DNA of 48,186 bases. Source: Kipferlia bialata (lineage: Eukaryota). The translations under genes were made by a program, and so were the position numbers. The stretch is taken from assembly GCA_003568945.1 (NCBI GenBank), contig BDIP01000012.1, positions 1 through 48,186 on the forward strand. Reading direction: 5' to 3'. Shown piece after piece: positions 143 to 39,146 of this stretch. The notes below the pieces were generated by a model that worked only from the letters and a program-made list of their open reading frames with translations, was not told the origin of the DNA and made no database searches. Each line of letters begins with the position of its first letter. Position 1 is the stretch's first letter.

Positions 143-204
143 CTAGTCCCGACATTGATGACTGCACTCTGCTCATGGGCATCGGGGGCTCAGCAAGGGA
201 GGGC
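143..204 (-). CDS. Most 3' complete exon in window (PSLAEPPMPMSRVQSSMSGL)
   Basis: ctaaccctcttag| acceptor and |gtatg donor; phase matches the upstream exon at 452-513; a donor-side echo lies at ~26-67. Confidence 0.7.
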
Positions 205-6200: not shown

Positions 6201-7847
6201 GTGACGAGTACCCACTAGTCTCGACATGCTCCTTGATGACATCAGACAGCAGACTCAGCTGCTTCTCAGCAGTACCAGCACCTGAGGGTAAGTAGTCTCT
6301 CTCTCCCGCATCTCAATGATTGAATGGAAGTGTAATCACTATAATCCAAAAGATAATGATACACTTGTATGTATACGAAAGCAATGGTATATATACTGTC
6401 ATTACCTCTCATCACAGGGTTGGGGAACCGCAAGGCAGTGCCAGCTATACATAATATATATATATATATACCATATATAAAATATAAACATTATTATAAT
6501 GGTATATTCAAAATACCTCTCATGACAGGGTTAGGGAATCGCAGGGCTGTCCCAGCTATGGTGTTGATACCAGCTGTCAGACCATAGTCTATGCCGGGCT
6601 TGCTCCACATGTTGGCAAGGGTCTTGTAGGAGGCAACGACGTCCTTGGCTAGACGCAGCATGTGGCCTTAGACGTTAGGGAATACGATGCACTGTATATT
6701 ACACATTACTATATACTATATACTCTATAATGATAAGAATAGTATACACCGTCCTTGGCAAGGCAGAGCATGTGGGCTGTTAGGTAAGTGCATACCCAAT
6801 GACTGCTTATACATGAAGTGATTACCTGTTCCCCGAATTAGTGCAGTGGACGCAGTGGCAGAGGGTGTTGTACTAATCATCCTTGCAGTCAGAGCTCTGA
6901 TATCTGTCCAGTACCTGTCCCTCAGCACTGCACAGGCCTCCTCTGCCTCTGCTGCCTGGGTATTAGATTAAGACATTACCATAACATGCAACTATATATA
7001 CTACTATTTCCTATACTAAGACATAGAATAATCGCGTAGTAATACGTCAAACTCACCTGCCGAAGCGGGCCAGTGTCGGACCCAGTGGCAGCGTCCTCAA
7101 ATACCTAGAGTGAGATAATGATATATGCACAGGCAACGTGTATAGTCTATATATCACTGATACAGAGAATCAGCTAAAAGAGAAGGATATCTTGATGTGT
7201 TGAGACACTGGCCATGCGTCAATAGATACTGAACACACTTAGATCTGCAATTGTGTGTCTAAAAGAATACAAATTTACACAGATGCATATACCTTGAGCA
7301 GCTGCACTGTGAGTGTTGGTCTCACTGGCAGACAGTCAAAGAGGGTGCAGCTCCGGACATAGTTGTCTGGGGTTAGAGGTATATAGACATACTGAATATA
7401 TATATATATGTAACAATATACACCAATACATCAAATAGTTGTCTGGGGGGTCAGTAGTACCTAGAGAAGGATACGTTCACATATATCCACACAGGATAAT
7501 GTACATAGAGTATATCGATTATGTACCTGGGTTGTCGCATATTGCTATGGCCATCTTGTGGATATAGTACAGCTGCATCTTGTGGATGGGCTGCTTGAGT
7601 CTGCAGGCATAGCGACCATCCTGAAGGTCAGCATTCCAGAGAGTAAGAAACCAATATTTGGAACCGCTGGGCAAACCTAAGAACAATCATTGTACATACA
7701 CTATACTATCCATACCTGGAACGTCAGGACCTGCCCTGCCCTGGTGGTCTGTTCACGGAAGTAGTCGGTGAGGAGGTTCTGGAGTGAGAATGAACATCAA
7801 CACTTCAAAGCACTGCGGTTATTAAACTTCACGTTATACTACATATG

Positions 7848-7893
<46 letters not shown>

Positions 7894-10800
7894 TACATAT
7901 ATACCTTGAAGTGGATGCCCTCTGGGGATGACACCACCCCTCCCGCTATGATGATGGGGTAGCCACCGTCTAGGGCCTGGGATCAGTGGACTAAATGAAT
8001 AGCTATATTTACAAAACAGAAGTATTGTTTAATATACACTATGTATATACCCAACGTCTAGGGTCTGGCATCAGTGGACTATGAATATACAGGGCGCAAT
8101 TATACTTTTCTACTCAAGAATATATATGCATACATACACTATAGAGATATCCTCTCACCTTCACCACCAGTGGGTAGAACACATGGCCCGGGACATTGAT
8201 GGGTTGATATATCTACAATTGACACTATATACACTATACATTATGGTATATATACACTATACAATATAGTACATATACTACAAACCTTCACCACTAATGG
8301 GTAGAACACATGGCCCGGGACATCGATAGGTACCACAGTGATGTTGGTGCGCTTGTACGCCGCAGCTAGCACTCTGGCGTTCTCAACCTGGCATAAGCTC
8401 ATACATGTGTTTATCATATGAATAATACATACAAGGTATTCAAGAATGAAATTGTGATAATCTAATTATCGTCCTAACCTTAGTGTTTGACGCCTTGAGC
8501 CCCTCCAGTAGACCAACATACCACAGCAACACACACTGCACAACCTGGGTATTAAGGGGGTAGGGGGGGGGAGGAATAGAGAGAGAGAGAGAGAGAGAGA
8601 GAGAAGGAGAGAGAAAGAACACACTACATACCTGCACACTATCTCTGTCCAGGTATGCATATATACTATACGCCATGTGTATATACTATTTACCATGTAT
8701 ATATATTACATACCTGCACACTATCCCTGTCCAGGTATGCATATATACTATACGCCATGTGTATATAGTATTAACCATGTATATGTATTACATACCTGCA
8801 CACTATCTCTGTCCAGGTATGGTATGCACCCTGGGAAGTGCACTAGAGAGTGGCACAGTCTGACACAGGAGAGCAGGGCAGAGTCTCTAGGGTGTGAGTA
8901 ATATATATCTATATATCAGTATACAATATATACATACTATACATATACTATATATATACAAGTGGCACAGTCTGACACAGGAGAGCAGGGCAGAGTCCCT
9001 GGCAGGTGAGAATAGTATATATATATATATCAGTATACTATATACAAATACTACACATATACTGTATATACTAGTGGCACAGTCTGACACAGGAGAGCAG
9101 GGCAGAGTCCCTGGGGTGAGGCTTTGTTCTTCCATGTGTATGTATATCCACACACACACACACACACACACACACCCATATATATATGTATATATACTAT
9201 ATAGTGGCACAGTCTGACACAGGAGAGCAGGGCAGAGTCTCTGGGGGGTGAGAGTAATATATATCTATATATATCAGTATACAATATATAAATACTATAC
9301 ATATACTATATATATACAAGTGGCACAGTCTGACACAGGTCAGTAGTGCAGAATCCCTGGGGGGTGAGGCACTATATACATTCCCTTTCGAACACGTACA
9401 ATCGGAAATCTCTCATTCATACTAGAGCTCCATAGCAGCATATTGGTATTATCACTATAACCGGAGACCTCTGATCGGACGGAGGATGAGTATATAAACC
9501 CATACCTGGGTGGCAGGGCCCCGGTCATCAGCCACAGGAAGGGCTTGGGCTGGGGGATACCCTGATAGGGTGAGAATTAGACCAAGTATATACTAATACA
9601 GTAAAGATAGCCTAAGTAGTAAGGGTGAGCAGCAGAGGTGAGATACTGAAAGTACAATACAAACTCAGAGACTAAGTACCACACATGTACCTTGAACATG
9701 AAGTGTCTACTATTACAAATATTTGTCTCCTCTCTCGTTATACTTATATATAGTACAATATATACCACGTCGGTCTATGTATATATACGTCTCTCAACAA
9801 GAATATATTTGTATAGTCATGTTGTACATTTGCCAATGTACCTTGAACATGAAGTAGTATGTGTTGGCCTGGGACACTGTCACAAGGGACGAGGACAGCG
9901 AGACCTGGAGTGAGAAGTGTATATATAGTATATATACTGCATAGTATACATAATATAAATAATATATAATATATACAGTATACATATAGTGTATGGCACT
10001 GTGACCAGGGACGAGGACAGGGAGACCTGGGGGTTAGTACATATATACTCTGTATATAGTATGTATAATATACATAATATACATAGAATACATGTAGTGT
10101 ATGTGCCACTGTGACAAGGGACGAGGACAGCGAGACCTGAGAAGTTAGGATATACATATATAATATAGTATTTATATATATCCTATAGACTACATACACA
10201 CATGTATTCATATAAATACTACAGTGCCACGGTGACAAGGGACGAATCAAGCGAGACCAGGGAGTAGGACATATAATCCAAATACTATACAAAATATGAA
10301 GATATATATACAGTACTGTCCCTATATATACCTTTGTCATGTCCTCTATGCCACAGAAGGGCTCTCTATATATGTACTCTATACACTATACTATACCATA
10401 CATTCCATATATACATACTATATACTGTATATATACCTTCGTCATGTCCTCTATGCCGCAGAAGGGCTCTCTATATACTATACCATACCATTCAAACTAT
10501 ACATACTATACACTGTATACACACCTTTGTCATGTCCTCTATGCCACAGAAGGACTCCAGCACACCCCTCATGCTCTGGAACTGGGGGTGAGACACTTTA
10601 GACACATGATACATATATAAATATATATATATACCATATACTGAAAATAGTACTGGAACAGAGTACCAATAGTATATATTTATACATACCTCATGCTCTG
10701 GAACTGGGGGTGAGATGGGTATACATATCATACTATATTATATATATATATATCATACTAATACATAATAATAACCTAGTAAACCTAGTAAAAGCACACC

Positions 10801-13800
10801 CCTCATACTCTGGAACTGGGGGTCAGACAAGTATGCATACTATACAGTACACTAACACCACATTAATACAAACACATATCTATCACTATTACTTCTGACA
10901 CGCATATACATCACATATAAATTAATACTGTATTTGTATATATGTATACCTGAGGCTCTGTGCCTGCAATAGAATTCTATATAGAACAGTCATACTAACA
11001 ATATATTGAATACTGCAATATATGAATATACAAATATATCCACTGTATACCTGTGGCTCTGTGCCTGCATGCTGCCAGAAGGGCTCAGTAGAGAATCCCA
11101 TACATAATAATATAGGTACTGTAACTATATATATATATATTCATATATACTATTTAATATATACTAGTCTATATACCTGGGGTTCTGTGCCTGCATGCTG
11201 CCAGAAGGGCTCGGTGGCTGTGAAGAGAAGGGCCACATTAGAGCCCCTGGGAATGAGAGGAATGCAATATCCATTCTACCATAGTAGTCTACAATGCTAC
11301 AATATATATTGTAGAACTTGAACACAAGCCTAGGCCTAATACACTAGAATGCGTTTACACAATGATACCTGAACAACAGCCTCCCAAGCTCCTCCGGGTC
11401 CTGTATCGATGCAGGCATCAGGACAGAGACACTCTCCCTGAGGTCAGTATCGTAATATCCTAACCCTATTTATGTATATATATCTGACACTGATGATATA
11501 TACAAATATCATTATACATACAAATAGTCAGTCATAGATCATTATACATATATATAGTCAGTGAAGTTGGTCTCAGCACAGAGACACTCTCCCTACGGTC
11601 AGAGAAGGGGATAGTAATATATATATGATGCAATAGTTGTACCAGTAAAGTTTACTTACCTAAGGTCATCTACGTAGTTGCATATGGCCCCATCTGTGCT
11701 GTCTAAGCATGCCTCATGCTTCTCAATCAGGGGCAGGAGCTTGTTCAGCACTGCTGCCTCGCTCCTTGACCTATTGTTACTATTTATTACTATATATATA
11801 TATAATTATTAGTAATTCTTTATAATACATTATATTATGCAATGAATTACAATTCATTGTCATATATTACTATATATTACTATAATACCTCTGGATGAAG
11901 AGACGGGACGTGCTGACACTATAGGATATGAACTGGTGCAGCTCAATGCCACGGTCGGGGTAGAGTCTGATATGAGTATAGAGAGACACACCTACTAACG
12001 TACTATATATACACATAATTGGATATAGAGCAGCTCAATGCCACGGTCGGGGTAGAGCCTGATATGAGTATAGAGTGAATCTCTACATCTGTACAATATA
12101 TATACGAGTATGAATGTACATATACGAGTATATATACACATGAACTGGTGCAGCTCAATGCCACGGTCAGGGTAGAGCCTAGGATGAGTACATATAGAAT
12201 CATATATACATATGTAATAGTATTATACTAATATATATATATGAGTATATATCATAAAAACTGGTGCAGCTCAATGCCACGGTCGGGGTAGAGCCTACTG
12301 TGAGTATAGAGAGAATCTCTACATCTGTACAATGTATATACGAGTATGTATATACATGAACATATGAACTGGTGCAGCTCAATGCCACGGTCAGGATAGA
12401 GTCTAGGATAAGCGTTTATTTGACAGACAGTAACAACATATTGTGCAATGTACCAGTATTGAATTATTCACTGACCTCATGATTGCCTGAAACTGTGCAG
12501 TGCACATATACCATTATCCAAGTACACTCATATTCATGTACTACAAGACATATATATATATAGTATATAGTATATAAATATCTATATATCTGAATATAGT
12601 ACTGACCTCATGATTGCCTGGAACTGTGCCGTGCATACCATGAACGTACACTTGTCATCCATAACTATGTATATACAGTATATATAGTATATATGGTGTA
12701 TATATATCCATCTGAAAGTATACTCTCCAAGTACCTCATGATCGCCTGGAACTGAGCAGTGCATATCTTGATGAATGTGTTGAACACCTCCTTGGGCTCG
12801 TTGGTGTTGTACCGGTTGGTCAGGTACCGCAGGGCACTGGTATCAGTATCAGTATATATATATACATATATATACTGAGACTATTCAAGTATCAGTATCA
12901 GTATCTATCATCTATGCTGATATACTAGTCCGGTATTAGTATCACTATCAGTATCAGTACCAGTAAGGTATCAGTATCAGTATCTATATGTACATGTATA
13001 TATACATATACACTGATACTAGTCAGATACCCACCTTGGTGTGGATGTCATTATTAGTATCAGTATAGATAGTATATAATAGTATATATATTGTACCTAG
13101 GTGTTGCAGTCATGAGGTCAGACACACCAGAGGGGTATGACATATTGACACTAGTCAGGTGTCAGTATCTATATATATACATAAATATATGTATATATAC
13201 TGATACTATTCAGGTACCTAGGTGTTGCAGTCATCAGGTCAGACACACCAGAGGGATAACTCATATTGACCCCTATGCACAGACGGGGTGGGGGTGGACT
13301 GCATGTGGTCACAATTACTGGGGTGAGGCACTCTCTAAACTACGCGATCGTAATAATTACGCGATATGCATATACCTGCGAGGTGCTGCGCCATCTTCAT
13401 AACAAGGGTAGCTGCATCTGGCTGCGGCAGAGAGTACTTCTCTCCCAGGGACAGGTAGATCTGGCCAAGGGCTGCCCTGACAATAAGGGTTTCGGGGGGG
13501 AGAGAGAGAGATAGAGCGTACAAGTGTTCACTGAAATATACATATATAATGAGTCCTTACGGATATTCACAATGTAATATAAACCACTATACTTAGATTA
13601 TACCTTGAGAACACAGGTGGCACTAGGCCCTTCCCGAATGCCACAAGACACTGCCTGAGGAGGGGGGACCGGCTGAGCATGTCACCTGGGGTGGTGAGGG
13701 GTATATATATATATCCTATATATTATATATATCATATATGATATACTAATATCATATATGATATACAAGAGCAAACAGGGCACACATACACACATGTGTG

Positions 13801-16634
13801 TACCTGGAATGTGCAGCAACACTCTGCTGAATAGTGTCCTCTCCGATGAGAACTTGGCGTGGATCTGGGTGTTGACCTCTCCAGCTGGGAAGACCTGGGG
13901 TTAGAAGGGTATATTCATACACTAGTAGCAACATACACAACTATACTACTTGGGCAAGAATACAGATGGAGGTACCACCATGTCTATGTCCTCCCCGTCA
14001 TTCCCCTCACAATAGTATAGGTATACAACAGTATATAATTGTAAATACACATAGGTATACTCACCTTGAATGGGGGTACCACCATGTCTATGTCCTCCCC
14101 GTCCTTCCTGTCTATACAGGATAGTATACACGAACTAGTGTATCAATATATATTTATATATATATATATACATAGATATGCACCTTGAATGGTGGCACCA
14201 CCATGTCGATATCCTCCCCATCCTTCCTGTCAGACAGGGGCAGCACAAGGCCAGAGGGAAGGCCACAGGCCACCAGGACAGCGAATCTACATGTGAGTAT
14301 ACACACAATATAGAAGTATGTATATATATGCGTATATCTAGACAAGGCCAGAGGGAAGGCCACATGCTACAAGCACAGCAAACCTATTAATCAGTACATA
14401 GAGTAGTAACACAGAGTATAGAGTAACTATCGAGAGGAAAGAAGAATATTAATGTGGGTATTTGAGCAGCACACCTCACAAATGCCGCAATCTTCTGGTC
14501 GAGGGTGGGCAGGGCAAGCGCGGCCCAGATGGCCTGGGGGTGAGGTATACTTCCCTCTCAATCTCTCCGGCTCTCAATCGATACATATATATGCACATGC
14601 GCCTTCAACCGTCAATACATACCTCCTGCATGGGTGACTCGTGTGCCTGTGACACCCCTAGGCCATGGAGGAGGAGGTTGAGGTCAAGGACAAGCCTGAG
14701 TTGAGTCTTATCGGGATACAATACTGAGATATTATAATATATGAATTAAGATATATATACATATATACATATATATGGAGGAAGAGGTTGAGGTCATTGA
14801 CAAGCCTAAGGTGAGCCTCTTCGGGACATGGTAATACACTATAGTCCATACAATACCTATGCAGGTATCTCTCGTGGTCAGAATGACGCACTGACTCTCT
14901 ATACTCATTCAAATATAAATACATATATAGTATCCCTCACCTAGGCAAGTAACGTTCATGGTCACTGCCAAAGAATGATGCGCTGGCCTCTGACACTGAC
15001 GACTGGGACTCACACTGGGACTGGTCAAGGGACATGGCACTTCGAAGGCTACCGTGTGACCTAGAGATCAGTTAGTAATATACCGCATTATATAATAATA
15101 TATTGAGCCACCCATATACAGTTCATATGGTCCGTCTCCTTATATTTGTACATGTTACACAATTGTGTGAGTAGTACCTGCGGCAATCGAGACTGCCTGT
15201 CTCCCACGCATCCTGTCTCTCTCTCTCTATATATATATGTGTGTGTGTGTGTGTGAGCAGTTACCTGTGGCTATCGAGACTGCCTGTCTCCCATGCGTCC
15301 TGTCTAGACCTAGACGAGGACATCCCCTTGGACTCCCTGCTACTGTCAACAGAGGAGAGGAGCACCTGCTGGCCCATGGCCTTCTGCCTAATTCTACGCG
15401 ATTGCTTCGCGTAGCCCGCAGAAGCGATCTGACTCAGGGTCACGTTGTAGGCTAGGACTTGGAAGAGGAGCTTGGCGGCCTTGGAGACCTATGGTCAGTA
15501 TCAGCAGAAGTTTTGATACATGATGTATCTGTGACATACACACACATATATACAAGCCTCTGTCTGATCGTGGTTGATGAATGACATGGTCATGGTGGGG
15601 ACAGTCATAAATATATATATATAAATATATATACTAATGTATCTAATATATTCTAGTACATATATATATATATATATATATACATACCTCTGTCTGGTCG
15701 TGGTTGATGAATGACATGGTCATGGTGGGGACAGTCAGCTGTCGGAGGCCACTCCCAATGCCTGATGATAAGTGATATATACAGGTGATAACGTCACTGT
15801 ACTGATATACTATACTATACCAATACACATATGAATCCATGCCTATATCTTCCACCGTCTGTGCCACTGTGTTGTTGACAGCCATATACACATACACAGT
15901 ATATATATATGCCCACTGTAAACTATTATCCATTAATATATATATATATATATACCAATACTCTACCTATGTCCTCCGCCGTCTGTGCCACTGTGTTGTT
16001 GACAGCCATCCAGCACTCAGTATATACACCCATTATACTATTAGCCATATATTTATATATATATATATATCAATAGTTACCTATATCCTCGACCGTCTGT
16101 GCCACTGTGTTGTTGACAGCCATCCAGCACTCAGTCTGGACAGCAGTGGAGAGGAGAGTAGGCACAATCTAGGGTGAGGATAGAGAATACATATATATAT
16201 ACATAGTATAGAGAAATATATGTAAGTATATCCAACACTCAGTCTGGACAGCGGTGCTCAACAAGGTGGGGACAATCTAGCATCAGGGAATATATGGTAT
16301 ATGCATGTATATATCATGGTATATGTATTACAATGTATGTATATCCAGCACTCAGTCTGGACAGCGGTGGATAGCAGGGTGGGGACAATCTAGGATCAGG
16401 GAATATATATATGGAGAGAGTATAGTATATGTATAGTATACATATAGAGAGAGAGGGAGAGTATGTGAATATCCAGCACTCAGTCTGCGATGCAGTACTC
16501 AATAGAGTGGGGACAATCTAGGATCAGTATATGGAGTATATACACTTCATAATAGATACATGCAATATAACATATACTCGCATACACCCACCTCTGGGTG
16601 TTCCACTTCCAGGTATATATCAATATACACACAC

Positions 16635-16670
<36 letters not shown>

Positions 16671-17018
16671 CCCCACATCAAGGTGGTCCAGCACCCCCCA
16701 GTAGTTTATCTTGTAGCCATAATTGACATATATATTGAGTAGTACAATACCTCTGGATGTTCCACATCTAAGTGGTCCAGCACATCCTTGAGAGGATACT
16801 GACTGTGCAAGAGGGGGGCAAAACAGTCACTGACGAAGTAATAAGACTGAGGTAAGAGATAGAGAGAAAATGAACGACTATATATAGTATAATGTATAAC
16901 GTATATACTGTACAGTATGTATGACTGTGCAAGAGGGGGGCAAAGCAGTCTGACACGAAATAGTATGACTGGGGTGAGGGTATATATGCATTGTATATAT
17001 AGTATATGTTTATGGCAA

Positions 17019-17051
<33 letters not shown>

Positions 17052-18891
17052 TAAATATATGACTGTGCAACAGAGGCGCAAAGCAGTCACTGACGAAGTA
17101 GTATGACTGGGGTAAGACGCAGACACTATATACATTATGAGAGTATATACTATATATAAATATCCCCCTTATTACCTTAGGCGCTGGTGCCCCAGGTCCA
17201 CTGTGCAGTGCGGTTAGGATGTCAGACCAGATACGCCTCTCATCGGGGAGCACAGTGATCCTGATGGCTTAGGACGCAATGTATATTGAATGTATCCCAT
17301 ATATATCCGATATACAGTTCATATTCTCTCATCTGATCCTGATGGCTTAGTATTCTGTCAATACATATTGCACATAAGGTATACTATATATAATCTATAC
17401 TGTCAACTCTACCTCAGTATCTCCTCCCTGCCACTTATCATATTACTATCTCAAATTTACTGACTGACGCTTGGTATCCAATACATATATACAATTTTGG
17501 TATCAATAATGCAGACTCCCTACCTCAGTATCTCCTCCCTGCCACTGACCAGGTGCCCGAGTCCTGCCTGGGGTCAGTTTAGACCTATGTATATACATAT
17601 ATGAATGTACATACATAAACACACGCATATTAATCAATGTATACATATAACTGACCAGATGCCCTAGTGCTGCCCGATGTCAGTGTCAGTGTCAGTGATA
17701 TGATATATATATGTCTATATATATAGATAGAGAGAGAGAGAGATAGAGAGACATGCCTTGAACATTGGTGCCAGACACTTGAGGGCCAGTACCAGTATCA
17801 GATGTATGTATGTATATATATATATATAGATACATATATATATATATATAGATACATATATATATATATACATATATATATGTATATATCTGATATATCT
17901 ACATATGTTTACATGCCTTGAACATGGGTGCCAGACACTTAAGTGCCTCCTTCTTCTCATCGGAGGAGAAGAGCTTCCCTGATATCCTCATTCCTGACAT
18001 TAAAATATGTACACACACACACACACATATATGTATATACATATATATATATACATATAACTGTTCTCATCGGAGGAGAAGAGCCGCCCTGAGATGCGCA
18101 TACCTGACGTTACAATAGGTTTAGATATATAGTACTATACTGTGGTAGGATATACGTGGAGAAGATACCACCACACCTGACACAAACAGGTTTGTGGCTG
18201 TGATGTAGTACATTCTGGGTATATATATGTATATACTAATATGCGTGTGTGTGTATACAAATAATCCATACTGAGGTACCTGACACAAACAGGTTTGTGG
18301 CTGTGATGTAGTACATTCTGGGGTCCTTCTTGGTAGCCAGTAGGCCCAGTCTCCGAACACTGTCTAAGATACGCAGGGGTGACATATCCAGGAAGTCACA
18401 CATAGCCAGCAGTACATTGAGCAATGCGCCTCTATAGGCAGGTGGGCTCTTGGGGTCCATGGGCATGGTGGCCAGGAGACTCTCCACTAGGCCAATGTCT
18501 ATAAGCTGGTCGGCGTTGAGAGTGACAGCGAAGGAGGCTATGCTGCGTACCAGGGGTGTCTTTGTGGATAGGTCTAGGTGTGTCTCTGCTAGGAGAGTGA
18601 TGCCCTCAAGTCTAGCGGGGGAGAAGGCACTGGCAAGTCCATCATTCTGATGTGTAAGTGAAAGCATATAAAATTACTTAGGAATATTTAGTAGTGATAT
18701 TACTTGGGAAGATGAGGAGAAGACACTGGGTTGGAACAATACCTGGTATATATATATAGAGAGAGAGCGAGAGAGAGAGAGTACCTGCTCAGTAGGCAGG
18801 CTCTTGGACCTAATGTCCCCCATTGACCAAATATCACTGCCAGTGTTGAGGTTGACAGCTGAGGCTGTACGAGATGCAAGGGTTCTGACTG

Positions 18892-18926
<35 letters not shown>

Positions 18927-21900
18927 AATGCTCAGGTTGACAGCTGAGGCTGTACGAGATGCAAGGGTCCTGAAAGTGAACTAGTAAACAAATACAAGCA
19001 TGAATATACATGCTAGTAAAATTGTACCTTATCACAGGGTGAGACAAGAGCTCCTCCACCGAGTGTACTTCATCCTGCAGACATATATATACATAGTGAC
19101 ACACATATATATGGAAGTACCTTATCACAGGATGCGAAAGCAGTTCCTCCACCGAGTGTACTTCATCCTGCAGACATGCCACCAGGCCATTGTATATATA
19201 TATATACATATATATATACACATATATATGATAGTTAGATACCTAATGACAGGATGAGACAGCAACTCTTCGACAGAGTGTACTTCATCCTGCAGACATG
19301 CCACCAGGCCATTGGCGAAGAGGGGCACGATGGACCCATCTGCTGCCCTGGTGACATGGTTGGACAGGCCATCAAGCCTAGGGTTAGTATATGAGTATAC
19401 CATATACATATATATACAGAGAGACCATCAAGCCTGAATATCAGTAGAATACTGTATGGTAACGTATATAGTGATATGTGTATTGTATGGATATCCATCT
19501 GCTGCCCTGGTGACATGGTTGGACAGGCCATCTAATCTATATATCAGTATACTGTATGGTATTATAGACCATCTAACCTGTATATCAGTGGATGGCAGTA
19601 TACTATATATGTATATATACATATGTAGTAATTAATATACATACCTTGAGTATAATAGTATTATTAATAATGAAAATAGCCTGGAATGAGATTGCATATA
19701 TTTATACTATTCATAACCTGAGTATATGAATATGTATATATGTATACATACCTCCCCCCACAGACACACCTATCACAGTCTGGTTCCAATATAGCAGTAC
19801 AACCATATACAATTCATATATAGAGAGTGTATCTGTATTTGTATATATATATGTATATATATGCATACCAAGAAAGATATACCTGGAATGAGATTGCATA
19901 TATGTATACAATATATACAATTCATAACCTGAGTATATGAATATGTACATGTTTATGTATATAATACCTTCCACCGACAGATACATCTGTCACTGTCTGG
20001 ATGTATGATGGCAAGTGAAGCATTGTGGGAGATACATTAATACATATACTGTGTGTACAATTACCTTCCACCGACAGATACATCTGTCACTGTCTGGATG
20101 TATGAGTATAGTATCAGTATTACACACAGAGAGATATACCTTCCCCCGACAGATACATCTGTCACTGTCTGTATGTATGATGGCAGCAGGTTGGTGGCTG
20201 CGGCACAGGCCCAGCTCTTGCCAACACTCCTGGGGGTGAAATGAGGGTGTAGGGTGAGAGGGGGGGGGGAGAGAGTGGGCATGAGGGCATAGGGGGAGAC
20301 GGATAAGATGAAACTATTGTTGATCTTCAGTAGAGAGGGAGGGAGAGAGAGAGAGCGCCGTACCCAGTGGAGTTGAAACTATTGTTGATCTTCAGTAGAG
20401 AGGGAGGGAGAGAGAGAGAGAGTCATACCTAGTTGAGTTTATGATACATGGCACTCCGAATGTCATGCATGCTGCCATGATATGGGCAAAGGCACGGTTG
20501 GTGGTGGTGATGACAGGGGCGATGCTCCATCTACGGGTCAGAGGCGGGAGAGAGAGGTGGGGGGAGAACGAGAGAGAGAGAGAGAGTGTAGATATATTAG
20601 TATATATATATATATATATACACCTTGGGTGTGTCATGAAGAAGTCGTCAGTCTCCATGGGGTCTCTAAGAGTGTATGTCTCCAGTTCACAGGTGGATGC
20701 GTTGTATCTCAGAGGCTCGTATGCACATGGGTCCAGGCCCTCGGGGAAGCACCGCTCCAGGGTCTGCTCCTGGGGTTAGGGATACTACTAATAGTACAAC
20801 TACGCTTAGGAATACTATATATATACATCCCGCAGATAGTATATAGTATACAATATACTACAGAACTGTATTTAAGGAAACACCGCTCCAGGGTCTGCTC
20901 CTGGGGTTGAAGATACATATACAACACTACACATATAGATAAATATAAATGTATATACCTATATAGTGTGTAGAATATACAATACCGGTCGAGGATCTGC
21001 TGCTGGGGATAGTAATTACTAGTACAATAGCTACTATATATAGTATATACCGAACCCACCTTCAGCATAGCAAACCCAGGGTGCACCGCCCACAGAGACC
21101 TCAGAGGAATATATACTATGCAGTATTTACGATACATGTACAATATATAGTGTATACTGAACCCACCTTCAGCATAGCAAAGCCTGGGTGCACGGCCCTC
21201 AGGGACCTCAGAGCATGCTCCTGGGAGGTTAGGGGTAGAGGGTTAATAGCACGTACTCATGCCTTCATATATACATATATACCATGATACATACCTGTGT
21301 GGTGATTCCCAGCATGTGCTCATACTCGCCGAGAGTCAATAACTATATATACATATATATACATTTACATACACAATCATATCTTCTGTAACATATACTC
21401 GTATTATATATAAATACTTACACAAACATATCTTCTATAACCTGTACTATGTATTCACCTGTGTAGTAATACCCAGCATGTGCTCATACTCCCCACCAAA
21501 GTCAATATATAGATGCCCAGCATGTGCTCATACTCGCCCCCAAATGCTGCCTGTACAGCAGTGAGCAGAGTGTATGAGGTGTACACAGTGGCAAACCCGA
21601 CCATAAACAGTGCGATTGTGTGTCCAAGGGGTGAGTTATCTCCATATGATGTGAAGAAGTCGGTGGAAGGGACAATGCTTAGGACTGGACCGACGTTGGG
21701 AAGACCAAAGAGTGTAGGCTCCACGTGTGGTTGGGATGCATGGATTACGCCCTCCTTGGCACGGGAGATGTCAATGTCAACCTTGTGTTATAGTATAGTA
21801 TATATAGTACAGTACTATAGTATGACATATACAGAATACATGATGACGCCCTCCTTGGCACGGGAGATGTCAATGTCAACCTGGGGTGTAAGGTCATATA

Positions 21901-23128
21901 ATACGGGTTTATACTATGTAGATATGTATGTCTTTACATATATGTATGTGTGTGTGAATATGGACTATTGTATACCTTTGTGGGTGTCAGTGTCATGATG
22001 CCCTGCTCATATATCTATCAATCTATATCGATATATACATGTGGATATATATGGATAGATGTATATGAAATATATATGAATGAAGATACCTTGGTGGGTG
22101 TCAGTGTCATGATACCCTGCTCAGACAGGAGCCACCACATAGCTGCCTGGGGTAAGCGTGGACATCGTGTAGAAAGGCAGACATTCCGTTGAAATACACA
22201 TATTTTACCTGTACGAAGGATCCCTCGCAGGAGCTCAGATTCACATCGAGAACCTCCAAGAAACGGCCAATCACACCGAAGAAGTACTTGACGGAGTCCT
22301 GAGGTATTAGATCATTACACAAACAACTACCAATACTCACAAAGGTAAATAAAAGAAGATACTGAGATGCATCTATATACATGCATTGATACCTGGCTGT
22401 TGAGGTCTGGCTGTTCCCCACTATAAATATATATATATATTTATAACAAATACACTGTTCTAATAGTAACAATACCTGGCTGTTGAGGTCTGGTTCCACC
22501 CCAGTGTGCAGGGCCAGTGACTGTCTGAATGCACCTGGTGTCATATATAGCTTGACAGTATGGATAAACTAGTTACTATACAAAGATTAATACATACCTG
22601 GTGTATACACCATGCCATAGTTAACCACCATGGTATGCAGCTTGAAGTAGGTGTGCGAGGGGAGACCCGTGCTGATGTAGACAGTACGCATAGGTGGGGC
22701 AGCCTTGCTCAGCATAGCTAGTCTCAGGTGATTCTCCTCCCCATAACCCCCTAATGCCTGACCCTTGGGGTCGAAGGACATGTCGAGCAGCATCCACTCA
22801 CGCTCCTCCCCACTTCCCTTGGCCCTATGCTTGAGAGAGCGCTGTGCCGCTATGGGGTCACGGTGGAAGGAGGTGGATGCGCCGCATAGCTTGGCTGCCT
22901 CCTCTACAATAGCCTTCGCAGTATGGAGACAGGGTGTGTACACCCACATAGACTCACCGGGGGCGTCGAGGAGAGCCGATAGCCACTTGGTGGCGTATAC
23001 GCCCTCACCTGTCAGTATGCCCTGTCCCTCACCAAAGTCAGGGGGTGGCTCATCCCTCTCATTGTCAATGGAGGAGCCAAAGGCGGCGCTGACAGCGCCT
23101 ACTGTTAGTACAACATATACAAACATGC

Positions 23129-23159
<31 letters not shown>

Positions 23160-23344
23160 TGGGGCTCATCCCTCTCATTGTCGATGGAGGAGCCAAAGGC
23201 GGCAGAGACTGCGCCTACTGTTAGTATATCATATGCATAATATAATATATAGATATATATAGAGAGAGAGAGATGGGGCTCATCTCTCTCATTGTCAATG
23301 GAGGAGCCGAAGGCGGCAGAGACTGCGCCTGGGGTTAGCCATAC

Positions 23345-23382
<38 letters not shown>

Positions 23383-23425
23383 GAGCCAAAGGCGGCGCTG
23401 ACAGCACCTAGTGTTAGTACAACAT

Positions 23426-23458
<33 letters not shown>

Positions 23459-26019
23459 AAGAGAGAGATGGGGGGAGTCTACCAGTATACAATGTATATA
23501 TATATACGTAGTACCTAGGACACCCTCCCTCTCGTATATACGTATATATACATACCTAGTACTCCCTCTCTCTCGTATGGGTTGAAGGACATGGCCATGT
23601 ACTTGTACACAGCAGTCTCGGGGGAGTCTCCCATGTCGATATCATCGTGTGACTCAGAGTCCTCGTCTGCTACGCGATCACCATCATCGCCCTTGTATCT
23701 AATAGCCATGGCAATGGCAACTGGGGGTGAGAGAGGAAGAGAGAGAGAGAGAGAGAACTCTGGTATCTGATGGCCATGGCAATGGCAACTGGGGGTGAGA
23801 GAAAGAGGGAGAGAGAGAGAGAGAGAGAGCTCTTGTATCTGATGGCCATGGCTATGGCAACTGGAGGTAAGAGAGAAGGGGATATAGAGAGAGAGGGAGA
23901 AGGAGAGTCAGACAGAGAGAGGGAACTATGAGACTCACCATCCGACGGGTCTAAGAATATGGATGGGTCTGCCTCTGCATATGTGGTTCTGAGGGCAAGG
24001 CAGGGCTTTCCAGTGACCTTGGGGATTAGTATCCTACTATATACATATGTATATTAATGTACTAGAAAAACTCTATATATACGTTCACATAGGTACCTTG
24101 GGGATGAACCTCAGCTTGTCAGGTGGCGGACGGACGTCAATGTATCTGGAGTGAGTACCATTATACATACATGAACTGTAGCATACATAATCTTGTGTTC
24201 CTTCCAGTCACATACTAGTAGATAGAATGCAATGTATACATAAGAGTTACTAGCATAGAACAAGTATAGTACAGTACAGTGTATCGATATACAAATATAC
24301 CTGATAGGTGTGTTTCTAGGCAAGTGGGGTGGCACAGCAAAGCTACCAGATGGCAGCACGGGTAGGAACAGGACCAGTCCACCTGAGGGTTAGTGCATAT
24401 GTAGTATATATATACATATACATATATAGGACCAGTCCACCTATGGTGTGCTCTGAGGCATGGGGGGTGGCAGAGCCCAGGGGGTTCCTGACAATGCAGA
24501 GATCGGAGTCAGCCACCTAGTGTGAGCCAGATAGAGAGAGAGAGAGAGAGAGGACATGGGGCGTGGCAGAGCCAAGGGGGTTCCCGACTATACAGAGACC
24601 GGAATCAGCAACCTGAGGGTTAGTGGTATGATCTATGTATACACAAATATATAAAAATATATAGGGAGAGAGAGAGAGAGATGGGGCTTGTCAGAGACAG
24701 AGGGTGACGATGCTGAGGTCAGAGTCTATGACCTCTGTTTGTGAATGAATGGTAAAGGTACGTACCTTAGAGTGTGGTGTATTGGGCCCACTTGCGTATG
24801 GCAGCTCTCCCCCTGCCTCCATCGTGTATGCTATGTCCATGATGACACTCAGATGGGCAGGGGAGGCATTCTCAGCACCAAGCAGATAGACAAGGTGTCC
24901 TAGGGTCATTGGAAGGAAGAATGGGGGATAATATATATATTCATATTTAGTATATATACAAATAGTTATGCTGAGGGGAGGCATTCTCAGCACCTAGGAG
25001 GTAGACAAGATGGCCTGGTATAATTGTATACAAGAGGCAGAAAACACGACACTCATATACTATATACATATGCTATATACATATACGTAATCAGACATTC
25101 TCGGCACCAAGGAGGTAGACTAGGTGGCCTGGGGTTAATCGGAAGTAGAACATAAGACTAAGTTGCCAATACACACTATTCATACCCTCTAACAGCATGT
25201 TTGATATGGCACATGCCATGGGCATCGGAGTATATACACATATACTGTGAATATAGAGATATATCCATACCTACAGTGATACCCTTAGCAACCAGTGCCC
25301 CCAGCTGTGCACTCGACCCATCGGTGTCAAGGAGGGGGGTCACCTGGTCTAGGTTCATAGAGGCAGCTGGGGGTGTTAGAGAGAGAGAGAGAGAGAGAGA
25401 GAGCTAGGTTCATAGAGGCAGCTAAAGTTAGTATACATTTTAGGAAGAACCAAAAGAGAATTGTATAGGTGTATCTAGCAAGGGTGTGACCTGGTCAAGG
25501 TTCATCTGGGCAGCTGAGGGGTTAGACAATGAGGTCTTAAGATAGTAATTACACCATGATATAGAGAGTACTATAAAGTATATCTATCTGCATCTAGGAG
25601 AGGAGTCACCTGGTCAAGGTTCAGAAAAGCGGCTGAAGGGGAGATAATGTACTGTAATACCTACACATACACACAATGTATGGTGAATATATACACCTTC
25701 CCGGTAGTTGAGTAGCTCTCTCTTCCAGTCAACATCTCTCTCTCTCCCTCTCTCCATATATATATGTGTATGTATATACATATATACCTTCACCGTAGTT
25801 AAACAGCTCCCGTGGGTTAACCCCTTCCATCCAGTCATGTACAGTGATATATATATATATATACATATATGTATACATATAAATACATAATTTTGTTATA
25901 TTAACACCAACCTTCACCGTAATTGAGTAGCTCTCCTAGGTTGACCCCTCCCATCCAGTCATGCACCACGTGTCTGTGATGTACACCTAGAGAGGAGAAG
26001 CAGAGAGGTGCCTAGGGTG

Positions 26020-26051
<32 letters not shown>

Positions 26052-29000
26052 AGAGTAGGTGTCTGTGATGCTCACCCAGGGAGGAGAAGCAGAGAGGGGC
26101 CTAATGTTAGAGGATAGAGAGAGAGAGAGAGAGAATATGTGTCTGTGGTGCACACCCAGGGAAGTGAGGCATATACGTATGATTAGGCTGGTATATGTAA
26201 CATACACATACCTTGTCCTTGAACATGTATCTGGACACACAGGGCATGTTGAGCACTGGCACATGCATCATGGACCCCTCTTCTAGGCCTGATGTCAGTA
26301 TCATACATATATAACAAGGCATATATATAGTATGTAAAACAAAAATATAGTGAATATAATACAAATATAGTGAATAGTACAAATAAATACATACTGATAC
26401 TGATACCTGCCAGTACTCTGTCACACCACTCAGGTACAACCACTCAGTATATATATATATAAATATACTACACTCTAACTATGTAATAGCTGATACTGTA
26501 TGTATCATATATATATATATAGATAGATACTATATAATGATACCTGCCAGCACTCTATCGCACCACTCTGGTACAACCACAGTGCTGAGGTACTGATACT
26601 GATACTGATACTATATACTATCAATATCATATATATATATACTATATAATTATACCTGATAGCACCCTGTCACACCACTCTGGCACAGCCACAGTGCTGA
26701 GGTACTTGGGACCAACACGGACACCCTCAGCTATGTCTGTTGGCAGTGCAGTCTGTGCCTTGACCTCTCTCACTGCCTGCTCTAGTGCTGATAGGCCCTC
26801 GCTGGATACAGTGGCCTTGCGGAGGGTGTCGTGGACCCACACGCTCAGACCTGGTATTAGTGTGTACAGAAAGGAGTAACATATATGTATACATATACGT
26901 GACTAGGTACTGAGCATGATAGGTATGCCCTGTCCAGAACTTGTCCATGTCCCCTCCAATTCATATATACATACAGATACATATGATTATATGTATATAT
27001 ATGTAAATACATTCATACCTATGTATTGGGCGTGGTATGTATGTCCAGTCCAGAACTTGTCCATGTCCCCACCCTCCAGGTGGGCTATGGCACTCTCGCA
27101 GTCACGTCTCACAGCCTCTCTCATGGGTAGACGCACATCCCTGGTGTTAGTATATATGAACCTATATGTATGCATATATATAGGTAACTACATGGACCCA
27201 CCTTGGCATGTACCGACAGATGGCAGTGGCACCCTAGTATAGCATATATACTCATAATACTATAGTGTACATATGTATACACATAACTATACCTTGGCAT
27301 GTACCCCCTGATAGCGGGTAGTGGCACCCTAGTCTTATAGCATAGTATCATAATGTGTATATGTATATATATATATATACATGCAATATATATGTATATA
27401 TGCAATATACCTTGGCATGTACCCCCTGATAGATGGAAGGGGCACCCTAGTATAGTATACATACAGTATATATCGTTATATATATATATGTGTGTGTATA
27501 TATGCAATATACCTTGGTATGTACCCCCTGATGGATGGCAGGGGCACCCTGGTCTTGAGTCTGAGCACATCTGCCATCCCAGTCTCTCTGGTCAGGGAGG
27601 TGATGGCTGTGATCTCCCACGTGTCCTCATCCTCTCTCTCTCCCTCTCCCTCTGCGCCATCACCATTATCCTTGGTCCCCTTAGAGCCCTTGGCGGGCTC
27701 AGTACTGCTAGGCTTCTTAGAGCTCTTCGCTGCTTTTGGCACCTTGGCCACTAGGAACCCATTCACGCTGAACAGAGGCAGGGGGATGATACCCACGAAC
27801 CTGTACATGAGAGATATTAGACTACAAGACTAAGTATATATACAAGATTATGCAGAACTATATAGAGCATGAAAATATATAGTTATACTTATACTTATAG
27901 AGAGAGACAGAATCAGACACACCTCTCTCCCTCTTCACTCATTGACTCAATGGTGGCAGTATGAGAGATAGTAAGAGGCATAACCAATTCCCATGTACTG
28001 ATACACATCCAGACACAATGACATACCTCTCCCCTTCCTCGCTCATTGACTCAATGGTGGCAGGGATGGGCTGGATCATAGGGGCCTGGGAGTGAGGGTG
28101 AGAGTAATACTGTTGTAAACAATAAATATTATGTATAATAATTGTATAAGGATATATGTATAAGGAATGGGCTGAATCATAGGGGCCTGTGAGTGAGAGT
28201 GAGAGTAGTACTGTTGTGAATAATAATTATGTATAGTATATGTATAAAGTAGTACAAGGAATCGGCTGGATCATAGGGGCCTGGGAGTGAGAGTGAGATG
28301 AGAGAGAGGAATGATCATGAGCCAAATACCAAGATAAGAAGTGCATTGGTTATGTTCAATGATATATTGAAGAAGTAATGGACATAGATCTGTAGTCAAT
28401 GGCAAATACCTGCAGGAAGCTGGGGTTGTTTGGCAGTGTCATCAGTCCCCTACAATATATATATATATAATCAGGTATATATAAATATATGTATGTGTGT
28501 ATACATAGCAATACCGGTAGGAAGCTAGTGACCATATATACATATGTGCATAATATACCTGAAGGAAGCTGGGGTTGTTAGGCAGTGTCATCAGTCCTCT
28601 ATACCCAGAGTCAGTCTTGTCAGACGCATGGAGGGACTCGTAGATGGGGCGCTGCTGGAGCTTCTGATGCATTAGAAGAAACTAGACTTGAGTGATGTTA
28701 AATATGTACACAATATGGATACTGAGGGACTCGTAGATGGGGCGCTGCTGCAGCTTCTAAGGCGTGAGAACATAGAGAAATCTTAATGTATGCATACAGA
28801 AACATGCATATATATTACACAAATAGCATGGATACTGAGGGACTCGTATATGGGGCGCTGCTGCAGCTTCTAAGGCGTGAGAAGAATGAAAAGAACGAGA
28901 AATGGAGGACAATCAAATAGTTTCTAATACGTGAGAAGAAATGAACTTCCGGGTATACTGCACTGACATATATGGATACTATGAAAAGAAGGAATCGACC

Positions 29001-32000
29001 ATTTCTTCCATTACAAGACTACAATTGAAACCAGTATAGGCTAGATAATGGTAATAATACGTACCAGGAGAGTGGGCACAATCCCACTGAGCAGGTTGTG
29101 CATGTGTATTCAAAGATATATATATATATATATATACATAGGATATGTGATATATAATAACTCTCTGCGTACCAGTAGGGTAGGCACAATGCCACTGAGC
29201 AGATTGTGGAGGTTGTCTGTGAAGTCTGAGTCGATCAGGACATCGAGGAGTCTGTTCTTGCACTTCCTCCTGACACTCTTCCTGATGCTGTACCACTAAG
29301 GTGAGTTTAGTTGTAATCAATATATATATATATATACAAAAACGACACTGTACTATAATCTGTACTGTATTACCAGTATAGTACCTTATCAACTCCACCG
29401 AGGTAGAATGCCCTGTGTTCTTCAGAGTGTGCCATCAGCAGCATAAATGTATATATCTATATAAACACAAATATATACATATATATACATATATAGTGTA
29501 TATATATATATACATATATAGTACCTTATCCACCCCCCCAAAGTAGAACGCCCTGTGCTCCTCAGAGTGTGCCATCAACATGACACCCAGGGCCAGGTAC
29601 TGCTGGACCATCCTGCAAGTGAGACATGTATATATATATATATATATGTATATGTATATATGTATATATATGTATATATAATACATCAACATGACACCCA
29701 GGGCCAGGTACTGCTGGACCATCCTGATAATGAGTCTACACGATAACTTGTCACGTATGGTGATCATGTTATACTATATCAAAATAGATGAGTATATGTG
29801 TACACCGGGGGTCAGGTACTGCTGGACCATTCTGACAGTTAGTTGCTAGAATAATCACATAGTGAGACATGATGACTCATATGATACTCATCCATATCTC
29901 ATATATACCTCAGGAGTGACCCAGAGTGCATGGCCCAGAGCATTGTCTACGATACTTCATATAGTATACAGTACAAACAGTCTTATTCCTATAAAGACAT
30001 ATATATATGCCAACCTCAGGAGTGACCCAGAGTGCATGGCCCAGAGCATGGTCTTCTCAACCAGTCTAGCCCTAGGGGTGAGAGGAAGAGAGAGAGAGAT
30101 ACCGCAGACACGAGATATAGTAATCAAGATGATCTACAGATGGGTAATACAAACAATACCTGGCAGTGATGGGTGCGGCATACTTGGCACCCACATCCCT
30201 CTGGACATACAGGATCATGCTCCTGAGGGGTCAGATATCATATCTATGTATATATATACTATATGTGGAAATAATGAATACATATAGGGACGACAAACAT
30301 GTAAATACTGATACAGGAAGGATCATGCTCCTAGGGGGTCAGAATCTCTCAAAGTAATAATATATATTTATATATGGGTATCTTAAGGTAACAGAGATAC
30401 AAATTGTTCAGAATAACACATGGACAAGAGACAGAGAGAGAAGATATTATACCTGATAGAGACAGAGACAGAGAAGAAATCCTACCTGAGGGTCTCGAAG
30501 AAGTTGGGTGGGATTGGGAATCCGCAGGTGGTAAACACATCCTCTTGGCGTACGATCCTGGGGAGTCAAAAACAAAGAGAGAGAGAGCATATACGAACAA
30601 TAGTGAAATACATGGATATACATATACATACCTCTCCCCCCAAACCTCACTGGTCCATGAGTTCATGGCCCTCTCACAGGCATCAAGCCTAGACTCAACC
30701 TGGAGTGAGTATTCTACGCGATTTTACGGGGTACAACTCACATACTGGCATATATAGGGTATATACATACCTGTGCCTCCTCGTCTCCGGTGTCCACTGA
30801 GAGTATAATAACAACCAGATCTACGTATGATAAATACTACAATCCTAGTCTCTCTCCCAATATATACATACCTGTGCCTCCTCGTCTGCCGTGTCCTGTC
30901 TATATTTCTATATATACCTAGTATAACGACAAATACTACTACATAACAGCTACGCGATGCTAGTCCTTATATATACATACCTGGGCCTCCTCGTCTGCCG
31001 TGTCCACTGCCAGTTGGATGGCAGGTAGGTTGTTGAGACCGCCTGCTTCAACTAGAGGGTTAGATGATTACCATACCACACAAGTCGAGCAACTATGTCT
31101 ACCGTACTCTGAGCCAACCTAGGTTGTCGGGTGATGATATACATATCCAATTTACTATGTTTACTATTGAATATATAAACTCTGAATAACTACGTATGTT
31201 ACCTCACCTAGGTTGTCTGGTGATACCAATACTATTTTCTATATATACTATACTATTGAATTCGTATATACAATATGACATATGGGCGTACCTAGGTTGT
31301 TTGGTGATATCTCTGTCAGTCTCAGCACAGGAAGACCAGTCTGGGACTCAAGCACATCGAGGTGCCTTATTGTAAGTGGCAAATTTATAATAGTATGTGT
31401 ATGTATGTGTATGTATAATGTTTGATATATATATATGCAGACCAGTCTGGGACTCAAGCACATCGAGGTGTCTTAATGTAAGTGGATATATATATATATG
31501 TGTGTGTGTATACTAATGAATGATACAATATATGTATATACATATATATGCAGACCAGTCTGGGACTCAAGCACATCGAGGTGCCTGGGGGAAAGTGGAT
31601 ATATATTATCGTATACATATTATAGTATACATATTTGTGACACAATACATATATGCAGACCAGTCTGGGACTCAAGAACATTGAGGTGCCTGGGGGTAAA
31701 GAAGAAATACACATAAGGAGTAAATAAGAGACAAGAGGTGCATTGCACCCATGATGCAGGTAGTGTACACATGGTGTATATATGGTGAATCAGCACTGTA
31801 TTGTACCTGTGGTGCAGTGATGGGGAGCACACCAAGGAGAGTAGCCCTATGGTAGGTCGCAGCTGCATCTCCTTCTGCCTCAGGGCCACAGGGAAGGACA
31901 GGTTGGGCACGTCCCTAAGAGGTTAGAGAGAGAGAGAGAGAGAGAGAGAGAGCCAGAGAGAGATGAGGGGCAGGTTGGGCACATCCCTGGAAGGTTATTT

Positions 32001-33617: not shown

Positions 33618-33659
<42 letters not shown>

Positions 33660-35804: not shown

Positions 35805-35839
<35 letters not shown>

Positions 35840-36389: not shown

Positions 36390-36422
<33 letters not shown>

Positions 36423-36613: not shown

Positions 36614-36646
<33 letters not shown>

Positions 36647-36863: not shown

Positions 36864-36898
<35 letters not shown>

Positions 36899-39068: not shown

Positions 39069-39104
<36 letters not shown>

Positions 39105-39146
39105 TTGGCAACCAGGAGCTGGACGCACACATCGTCCTTGCGGTTA

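What the first reader, a model, noticed from the sequence alone, without database searches (positions are those of the whole stretch)
16795..17116. Echo with a Ser AGT-to-TCA switch and no amino-acid change over 15 codons
Exon: tct tat tac ttc gtc agt gac tgt ttt gcc ccc ctc. Echo 1 (~16922-16968): tca tac tat ttc gtg tca gac tgc ttt gcc ccc ctc. Echo 2 (~17060-17107): tca tac tac ttc gtc agt gac tgc ttt gcg cct ctg. All encode SYYFVSDCFAPLLHS. Crossing between serine codon families needs multiple substitutions, which strongly indicates a long coding history for a sequence now lacking a usable donor.
Basis: seen in the sequence. Interest (0 to 1): 0.8.

Follow-up and report, generated by a model that had tools for sequence, protein, structure and literature searches.

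The report
Silently recoded half-exon copies in introns
In this protist gene, over a third of exon ends have cut-off copies in the neighbouring intron that spell almost the same protein with different codons, likely because recombination between very different versions of the gene keeps stacking formerly used exon ends there.

Summary
Confirmed, and much bigger than reported. The minus-strand exon 16846-16751 has two upstream copies of its first 47 nt, each with its own branch point and AG; all three encode SYYFVSDCFAPLLHS, and one has AGT>TCA. One DNA contig spans exon and echo 1 without a difference, and an RNA-type contig splices to the exon copy. The same pattern covers the whole giant dynein-heavy-chain-like gene (16 of 17 protein hits are paralogues, the 11 looked up all Kipferlia bialata): 134 splice-anchored half-exon echoes on 87 of 238 exon sides, in ~111-nt units, 0 of 357 in controls. 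Echo and exon differ at 329 silent versus 78 amino-acid-changing codons (pN/pS about 0.056), in near-saturated ~20-nt patches. Stacked copies share breakpoints, relate star-like, and outer copies are most decayed. So the copies were coding for most of their history. Best reading (0.55): arrays are re-stacked by unequal homologous recombination between deeply diverged haplotypes, each step demoting a working exon end. No donor haplotype was seen and only one gene was examined. Ten literature searches found no description.

The parts
16751..16846 (-). Spliced exon (SYYFVSDCFAPLLHSQYPLKDVLDHLDVEHPE), AG...GT bounded
   Evidence: RNA-type contig's 19-letter loose end after exon 17260-17176 matches this copy at 18 of 19 letters, echo 2 at 16 and echo 1 at 12 (compared by eye)
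16922..16968 (-). Echo 1: 5'-half copy with own branch point and AG, Ser TCA, no donor
   Evidence: on one DNA contig with the exon
17060..17106 (-). Echo 2: 5'-half copy with own branch point and AG, same inner breakpoint as echo 1
16847..16921 (-). AT/dinucleotide-rich spacer of unit 1 ending in the exon's branch point and AG (unit 122 nt)
16969..17059 (-). (TA)n-rich spacer of unit 2 ending in echo 1's branch point and AG (unit 138 nt)
16662..16694 (-). Decayed 3'-side echo of the same exon, donor lost to a (CT)n run (one of 13 unanchored echoes)
17176..17260 (-). Upstream exon, spliced to 17524 upstream and to 16846 downstream
   Evidence: joint 17259/17523 and loose end at 17176
16081..16168 (-). 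Next exon, with three 5' echoes (from 16276, 16389, 16517; TCC/AGC/TCC/AGT Ser and four different Leu codons in one column) and two 3' echoes (16021-15967, 15885-15843)
   Evidence: X1 record 7 spans 16109-16613 with 0 differences; X2 record 9 uses the 16081 donor
143..44795 (-). 119 curated exons (12,543 nt) of one giant dynein-heavy-chain-like ORF carrying 147 echoes (134 splice-anchored); anchored units make up 33% of the span
   Evidence: two unresolved breaks (after 38961, at 21515); database protein P0016 is 98.7% identical over 1403 aa to the model

Best explanation
The echoes are half-exon copies that keep their splice site and differ from the exon almost only at silent sites; they are likely retired exon ends, stacked by unequal homologous recombination between deeply diverged versions (haplotypes) of the same gene. 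Shown: ~111-nt units of exon edge + splice site + intron piece; 5' halves always upstream, 3' halves always downstream; the spliced copy is the one joined to the rest of the exon (two junctions seen). Inferred: (1) a rare template-switch or alternative end-joining event first duplicates an exon-intron boundary; (2) because only exon sequence is alignable between haplotypes, crossovers and short conversions pair an exon end with an echo out of register, so that a working exon end of one haplotype becomes the echo in front of another haplotype's exon end with the same inherited breakpoint, and the reverse event pops a unit out; (3) turnover is fast relative to point mutation, so a copy spends only about 6-7% of its branch non-coding; (4) echo splice sites are ignored or their frame-shifted products destroyed, so the stacks are tolerated, not functional. 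A Dmc1-only, NHEJ-less repair system, reported for all fornicates examined, would favour such mismatch-tolerant exchange (from papers; not tested here).
For: 147 echoes on 70 of 119 exons, 0 hits in 357 control exon-intron pairs, 1 hit in 234 next-but-one introns, 0 of 147 away from the adjoining exon edge. 134 anchored echoes, 1609 codons: 1202 same, 329 silent, 75 replacement, 3 stop; mismatches by codon position 4.3/2.5/21.7%; single-nt changes pS 0.272, pN 0.015. Private changes in 35 multi-echo arrays: echoes 69 silent:24 replacement, exon 43:5, implying about 6-7% of the echo branch non-coding. Outer copies carry more private replacements (16 of 382 codons) than inner (8 of 505; p=0.02). 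Breakpoints shared: 27 of 62 within-array pairs identical, 32 within 3 nt versus 19% at random; spacer identity 0.81 just beyond the breakpoint versus 0.30 background. Star-like patterns exon/inner/outer/all-different 44/31/37/7 versus 11-18 inner expected for a serial chain; up to four synonymous codons in one column. Silent changes cluster (107 adjacent pairs vs 85+-6; two-state fit: 36% of codons in ~6.5-codon patches at 0.46, saturation 0.57). Copy numbers 151/52/26/6/3 fit a geometric (p=0.46), not Poisson (p=0.0002). Host residue kept at 525 of 554 echo codons where paralogues mostly differ. Loss of Rad51A and NHEJ, two Dmc1 paralogues in Fornicata: PMC8516963 section 8; Dmc1 stabilises mismatched triplets: PMC6719624 abstract.
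Against: No donor haplotype was seen: no allelic letters in the one DNA run (contigs drop variants, and that table also omitted paralogue differences, so this is weak); two metagenome scans gave 0 loci. The diversity required is extreme (patches at about 80% of saturation; Ser switches 5.9% versus at most 1.7% from two independent neutral hits at the mean 4-fold divergence). Intron flanks next to the splice site are barely more alike than background even for 18 codon-identical echoes (0.65 vs 0.61; rho -0.06 with echo divergence), which needs extra conversion or very fast intron turnover. The expected excess similarity near the breakpoint is only modest (182 vs 137 of 646 codons; sign test 44:36 of 113). 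One gene in one genome; comparisons share exons, so p-values are nominal; the detector misses decayed or short echoes.
Confidence: 0.55

Rival explanations
1. Echoes are used in place: frequent or programmed repeat-to-repeat deletion in DNA, or an unusual RNA splicing step between the direct repeats, puts an echo half onto the rest of the exon, so each copy is under direct purifying selection without any need for diverse alleles.
For: Same low pN/pS, kept splice sites (AG 75 of 77, branch point 61 of 77 vs 103 of 119 in true exons), old unalignable spacers, shared breakpoints; needs no extreme population diversity.
Against: Both junctions seen in the RNA-type run use the exon copy; only 7 of 134 echoes contain AGGT (16 expected by chance), so the spliceosome cannot cut most of them out exactly; offsets mod 3 are flat (46/43/45) and 6 of 134 would be in frame and stop-free; 3 stops and 13 echoes that lost their site or carry indels. 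A heritable pop-out process alone would homogenise units (inference).
Confidence: 0.13
2. The silent patches are conversion tracts from paralogous genes of this expanded family rather than from alleles.
For: Paralogous transcripts match one conserved exon core closely at the DNA level (7 of 62, 3 of 53, 2 of 47 differences) while flanking residues differ; tracts from old paralogues would be saturated and rich in Ser switches.
Against: Known paralogues are at most about 60-70% identical over short pieces and 24-50% over long ones; silent rate is the same at family-variable (120 of 554) and conserved (91 of 430) positions, the host residue is kept, and only 17 of 75 replacement residues occur in a relative; against P0001, 123 of 125 differing positions keep the host residue.
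Confidence: 0.1
3. Echoes are frozen snapshots of one lineage's exon end, while the working exon end is hypermutated and filtered by selection.
For: All copies would be once-functional; outer copies are slightly more diverged.
Against: Inner copies have 31 private silent codons against 11-18 simulated for a chain, and 7 three-way columns against 13-21; the reported locus would need AGT>TCA>AGT; no known process spares the echo but not the spacer.
Confidence: 0.05
4. Assembly artefact that stacks alleles or strains in tandem.
For: Unit length is close to a short-read length; microsatellite spacers are hard to assemble; the DNA run may be the source of the assembly; echo 2 is not bridged by a listed piece.
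Against: Separately built contigs span exon + echo 1 (330 nt) and exon + three echoes (505 nt) with 0 differences at uniform depth; 0.94 of sampled 31-mers over 6 kb are in the run; strict geometry and shared breakpoints.
Confidence: 0.04
5. Ordinary young tandem duplications decaying neutrally.
For: Geometry fits any duplication across a splice junction; a few units are perfect copies (62-nt array, 8739/8657).
Against: 310 of 366 single-base differences are silent against 24% expected; echo-private changes 69 of 93 silent.
Confidence: 0.01

Closest known systems
Internal tandem duplication / intron gain by duplication of an AG|GT-containing exon segment (Hellsten et al. 2011, as cited in bioRxiv 10.1101/051292, part 1 read; Rogers model recalled)
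   Same: Short tandem duplication of exon sequence that ends up inside an intron
   Different: Here the unit contains an existing splice site plus intron DNA, creates no new intron, mostly lacks AGGT, and the copies differ silently near saturation instead of decaying
Silent-cassette gene conversion (trypanosome VSG mosaics, Borrelia vlsE; recalled)
   Same: Non-expressed partial copies with mosaic patches that appear to exchange with the expressed copy
   Different: Cassettes diversify amino acids for antigenic variation; these keep the protein (pN/pS 0.056), lie in the gene's own introns and occur at many exons of a free-living protist gene
Tandem exon duplication with mutually exclusive splicing (Dscam type; recalled)
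   Same: Tandem exon-like copies under coding constraint inside introns
   Different: Copies are half exons with one splice site, not frame-preserving, nearly identical in protein, and not seen spliced
Minisatellite / tandem array evolution by unequal crossover and conversion (recalled)
   Same: Variable copy number, shared junctions, mosaic units, decayed outer unit
   Different: The last unit of each array is a working exon end, so purifying selection leaks into intronic copies
Divergent dynein-heavy-chain-like family of Kipferlia bialata (e.g. KIPB_000659, KIPB_000784)
   Same: Host gene aligns over most of its modelled length (35-50% with P0004); relatives carry DHC_N2
   Different: No AAA or other dynein Pfam family was detected in the six relatives scanned; whether their genes carry echoes could not be checked

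Membership tests
Intron gain by tandem duplication (AG|GT model) | Duplicated segment contains AGGT used as new donor and acceptor | tested here: not met
   7 of 134 echoes contain AGGT, about 16 expected
Intron gain by tandem duplication (AG|GT model) | Duplicate is purely exonic and creates a new intron | tested here: not met
   134 of 147 echoes include the existing AG or GT/GC and intron DNA
Mutually exclusive duplicated exons | Each copy has both splice sites and keeps the frame | tested here: not met
   Half exons with one site; offsets mod 3 46/43/45; 6 of 134 in frame and stop-free
Mutually exclusive duplicated exons | Alternative copies appear in mRNA | tested here: inconclusive
   Two junctions in one RNA-type contig set use the exon copy; contigs drop rare forms
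Silent-cassette conversion systems (VSG, vlsE) | Silent partial copies with mosaic relation to the expressed copy | tested here: met
   Patchy, star-like divergence
Silent-cassette conversion systems (VSG, vlsE) | Cassettes diversify the protein | tested here: not met
   pN/pS about 0.056
Silent-cassette conversion systems (VSG, vlsE) | Transfer into the expressed copy observed between clones | not testable with these tools
   Only one sample's contigs available
Introner elements | Near-identical intron sequences at unlinked sites | tested here: not met
   Self-BLAST of the window: 0 complex repeats 1.5 kb or more apart; rest of genome not held
Programmed DNA elimination between direct repeats (ciliate IES/pointers) | Excised form present in DNA | tested here: inconclusive
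   None of 5 listed joints runs from one repeat copy to the next; contigs hide rare forms
Dynein heavy chain | DHC_N2 linker domain | tested here: met
   6 of 6 long relatives hit PF08393 (E 2.5e-12 to 1.4e-6), 3 of 6 above the cutoff; the window's own spliced protein was not scanned whole
Dynein heavy chain | Six AAA modules with an intact Walker A in AAA1, stalk and microtubule-binding domain | tested here: inconclusive
   No such Pfam hit at E<=0.01 in 6 relatives; one degenerate GKS motif in the modelled segment scanned; no fold predicted

The most novel reading that the evidence does not exclude
This lineage runs a gene-wide exon-end swapping system: every exon edge can be replaced by a silently recoded version, either from a near-saturated pool of haplotypes or by in-cell use of the intronic copies, so that introns hold a readable archive of several deeply diverged alleles in a single genome, driven by Dmc1-only recombination.
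Probability: 0.35. Interest if true: 0.92.

Novelty: new variant of a known kind. Interest (0 to 1): 0.8.

Why it matters
Intronic DNA that cannot be translated should not show a tenfold-plus excess of silent change. If the best reading holds, one genome records the allelic diversity and recombination history of an unculturable-in-bulk protist population, implies sex or hybridisation and near-saturating synonymous diversity in a free-living fornicate, and shows what a Rad51-less, NHEJ-less repair system does to gene structure; it also gives a directly measurable system for splice-site choice among several perfect acceptors. If the copies are used in place, it is a new kind of gene processing. 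Practically, echoes mislead gene prediction: the database protein P0016 starts in one echo and includes another.

Tried and rejected
No whole genome is held, so nothing genome-wide was tested. The look-up of sequencing runs listed no holder on record as RNA; X2 is only guessed to be RNA, though it is spliced; its lack of cover over the echoes is not used as evidence. The read-laying covers 15000-17560 only; other arrays were not checked against reads. Two metagenome scans: 0 loci, 235 pattern matches with none confirmed. Pfam on 16 single ORF pieces and on P0001: nothing above cutoff. Rfam: 0. First automatic gene model took echoes as exons; a masked model was hand-curated; exons above 44795 were left out. 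One search failed to extend some echoes to the splice site and missed the reported Ser switch; one search corrects this and drops 13 of 147 echoes without a splice dinucleotide on the diagonal (listed). My early idea of a sharp identical tract next to the breakpoint is only weakly supported. A probability computed for a 24-nt paralogue match is not used, because one search does not show that match's mismatch count. The AGGT expectation was inflated by exon junctions and was redone. Literature: searches found no description of this pattern; some searches were background (listings only). One recalled paper on internal gene duplication is not held. PMC5874029 and PMC6679479: passages only ('duplicat' 0 occurrences in both); their supplements were not opened. 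Earlier scan findings: none.

Full report
The observation. On the minus strand, exon 16846-16751 is preceded by two copies of its first 47 nt (from 16968 and 17106), each behind a branch-point motif and CAG; all three read SYYFVSDCFAPLLHS and echo 1 has TCA for AGT. The 8 and 6 base differences are all silent, which random placement gave in 1 and 16 of 400,000 trials; splicing to either echo acceptor would shift the frame and meet a stop. A DNA contig covers 16681-17010 with no difference at the depth of the flanks, another covers exon 16168 with its three upstream echoes; an RNA-type contig leaves exon 17260-17176 into letters that match the exon copy (18 of 19), and another uses the first donor at 16081 (16 of 218 pieces shown, echo 2 not bridged by a listed piece; the DNA run may be the window's own source).

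The host gene. A curated chain of 119 exons (12,543 nt, 44795 to 143) has AG/GT ends except one GC donor and one exon without donor, and one unresolved phase break; the two long segments are stop-free over 1700 and 1828 codons. Database protein P0016 is 98.7% identical to the model over 1403 residues, which checks the frames of the lower part independently. One exon found P0001, named KIPB_007392 of Kipferlia bialata; P0001 found 16 proteins in 1.84 billion, the 10 looked up all K. bialata, and 6 of 6 long ones hit the dynein linker family DHC_N2, 3 above cutoff. So this is a divergent dynein-heavy-chain-like gene of Kipferlia or a close relative; motor function is untested.

The pattern is gene-wide. 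An ungapped search with equal weight on all codon positions found 147 echoes at 70 of 119 exons, 0 in 357 control pairs, 1 in 234 next-but-one introns, and none away from the adjoining exon edge. 134 sit on a splice dinucleotide (78 upstream with AG, 56 downstream with GT/GC); the 13 others were dropped from counts. Units are 111 nt in the median (10-90%: 84-136) and fill 33% of the span; echoes are 37 nt in the median. Copy numbers per exon side 151/52/26/6/3 fit a geometric law.

The copies were coding. Of 1609 codons, 1202 are the same, 329 silent, 75 replacement, 3 stop; single-base changes give pS 0.272 and pN 0.015. In 35 arrays with two or more echoes, changes private to an echo are 69 silent to 24 replacement, those private to the exon 43 to 5; this puts only about 6-7% of an echo's branch in a non-coding state, and trimming 2-3 codons at the breakpoint does not change it. 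The outermost copy has most decay (16 of 382 vs 8 of 505, p=0.02). Ser family switches occur in 8 of 135 comparisons at 5 of 100 positions, above the 1.7% from two independent neutral hits; silent changes come in patches of about 6.5 codons at 0.46, near the 0.57 saturation level. The reported switch itself could be a one-step 2-nt shift, so it is the pattern, not this codon, that carries the argument. Shared exons make the p-values nominal, and older decayed echoes escape the detector.

How the copies relate. Within arrays 27 of 62 pairs have the same breakpoint and the first 10 spacer bases stay similar (0.81, 0.71 vs 0.30), so units descend from one junction. Yet exon, inner and outer copy each hold private silent codons (44, 31, 37; 7 three-way), which a serial chain of snapshots does not give (11-18 inner), and one column holds four Leu codons: at least four lineages. 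They are not the known paralogues: the host residue is kept at 525 of 554 family-variable positions (P0016 among the relatives raises conservation slightly). Echoes do not look like alternative exons or new introns: offsets mod 3 are flat, 6 of 134 would be in frame without a stop, 7 contain AGGT. Against a simple picture, intron flanks at the splice site are near background even for 18 codon-identical echoes, and similarity rises only modestly towards the breakpoint.

Mechanism (inferred). Only purifying selection on protein reads codons, so each copy must have been a working exon end for most of its history; turnover within a single lineage fast enough to allow that would also homogenise the copies. 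The simplest fit is out-of-register homologous recombination between deeply diverged haplotypes whose introns no longer align: each gain demotes a working exon end behind the inherited junction, each loss promotes one, and short conversions make patches. PMC8516963 (section 8 read) reports that metamonads lack NHEJ and that all fornicates examined lost Rad51A and have two Dmc1 paralogues; PMC6719624 (abstract) links Dmc1 to stabilising mismatched triplets. That these enzymes make the echoes is untested. The donors were not seen, the diversity needed is extreme, and only one gene was examined, hence 0.55. In-place use (0.13), paralogue donors (0.10), snapshots (0.05), artefact (0.04) and neutral decay (0.01) follow.

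Novelty. The ingredients (tandem duplication, unequal exchange, conversion) are known; membership tests for AG|GT intron gain, mutually exclusive exons, antigenic cassettes and introners were not met. Searches found no account of protein-preserving half-exon stacks; passages of the K. bialata genome paper PMC5874029 and of PMC6679479 do not mention duplications, their supplements were not read, and most subscription journals are outside the library. Verdict: real, gene-wide, surprising; new variant of a known kind; interest 0.8.

Noticed in passing
window 32269-32980 (-): About 11.5 near-perfect copies of a 62-nt unit: a 21-nt 3' echo of exon 33166-33056 (RTLDEMR, recoded silently incl. CGT>AGG) with a branch point/AG before and GT after, i.e. 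a frame-keeping mini-exon; missed by the detector; copy number may be an assembly loop.
   Followed up: partly
window 21781-21295 (-): The long exon runs into its first echo without a donor (unit only 44 nt); either about 65 nt are missing from the assembly, or the gene is broken here, with two intact donor-bearing echoes downstream.
   Followed up: partly
window 16829: The RNA-type contig end reads Ser AGC where the window has AGT; one letter, two from a contig end: error, allele or editing not distinguishable.
   Followed up: no
window 16086-16147: Three paralogous transcripts match this exon core with only 7 of 62, 3 of 53 and 2 of 47 differences while flanking residues differ; hints at short conversion between old paralogues at the same tract where echoes break.
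   Followed up: partly
window 17916 and 15842 (-): GC donor needed for frame continuity at exon 17993-17917; 3 of 56 downstream echoes also carry GC.
   Followed up: partly
window 16768-17268 (-): Upstream exon, intron, echo 2 and echo 1 lie in one open frame of 166 codons; likely chance, as TA runs lack stops and offsets mod 3 are flat window-wide.
   Followed up: yes
P0016 vs window 16021 and 10703: A database protein of this locus begins inside a 3' echo and includes a 5' echo, showing that echoes mislead gene prediction.
   Followed up: yes
window 38961-38649 (-): Phase break in the exon chain; an exon is probably missing from my model.
   Followed up: no
P0002-P0017: A family of 4000-5100-aa dynein-linker proteins with hits only in K. 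bialata among those named; no other dynein Pfam family detected.
   Followed up: partly
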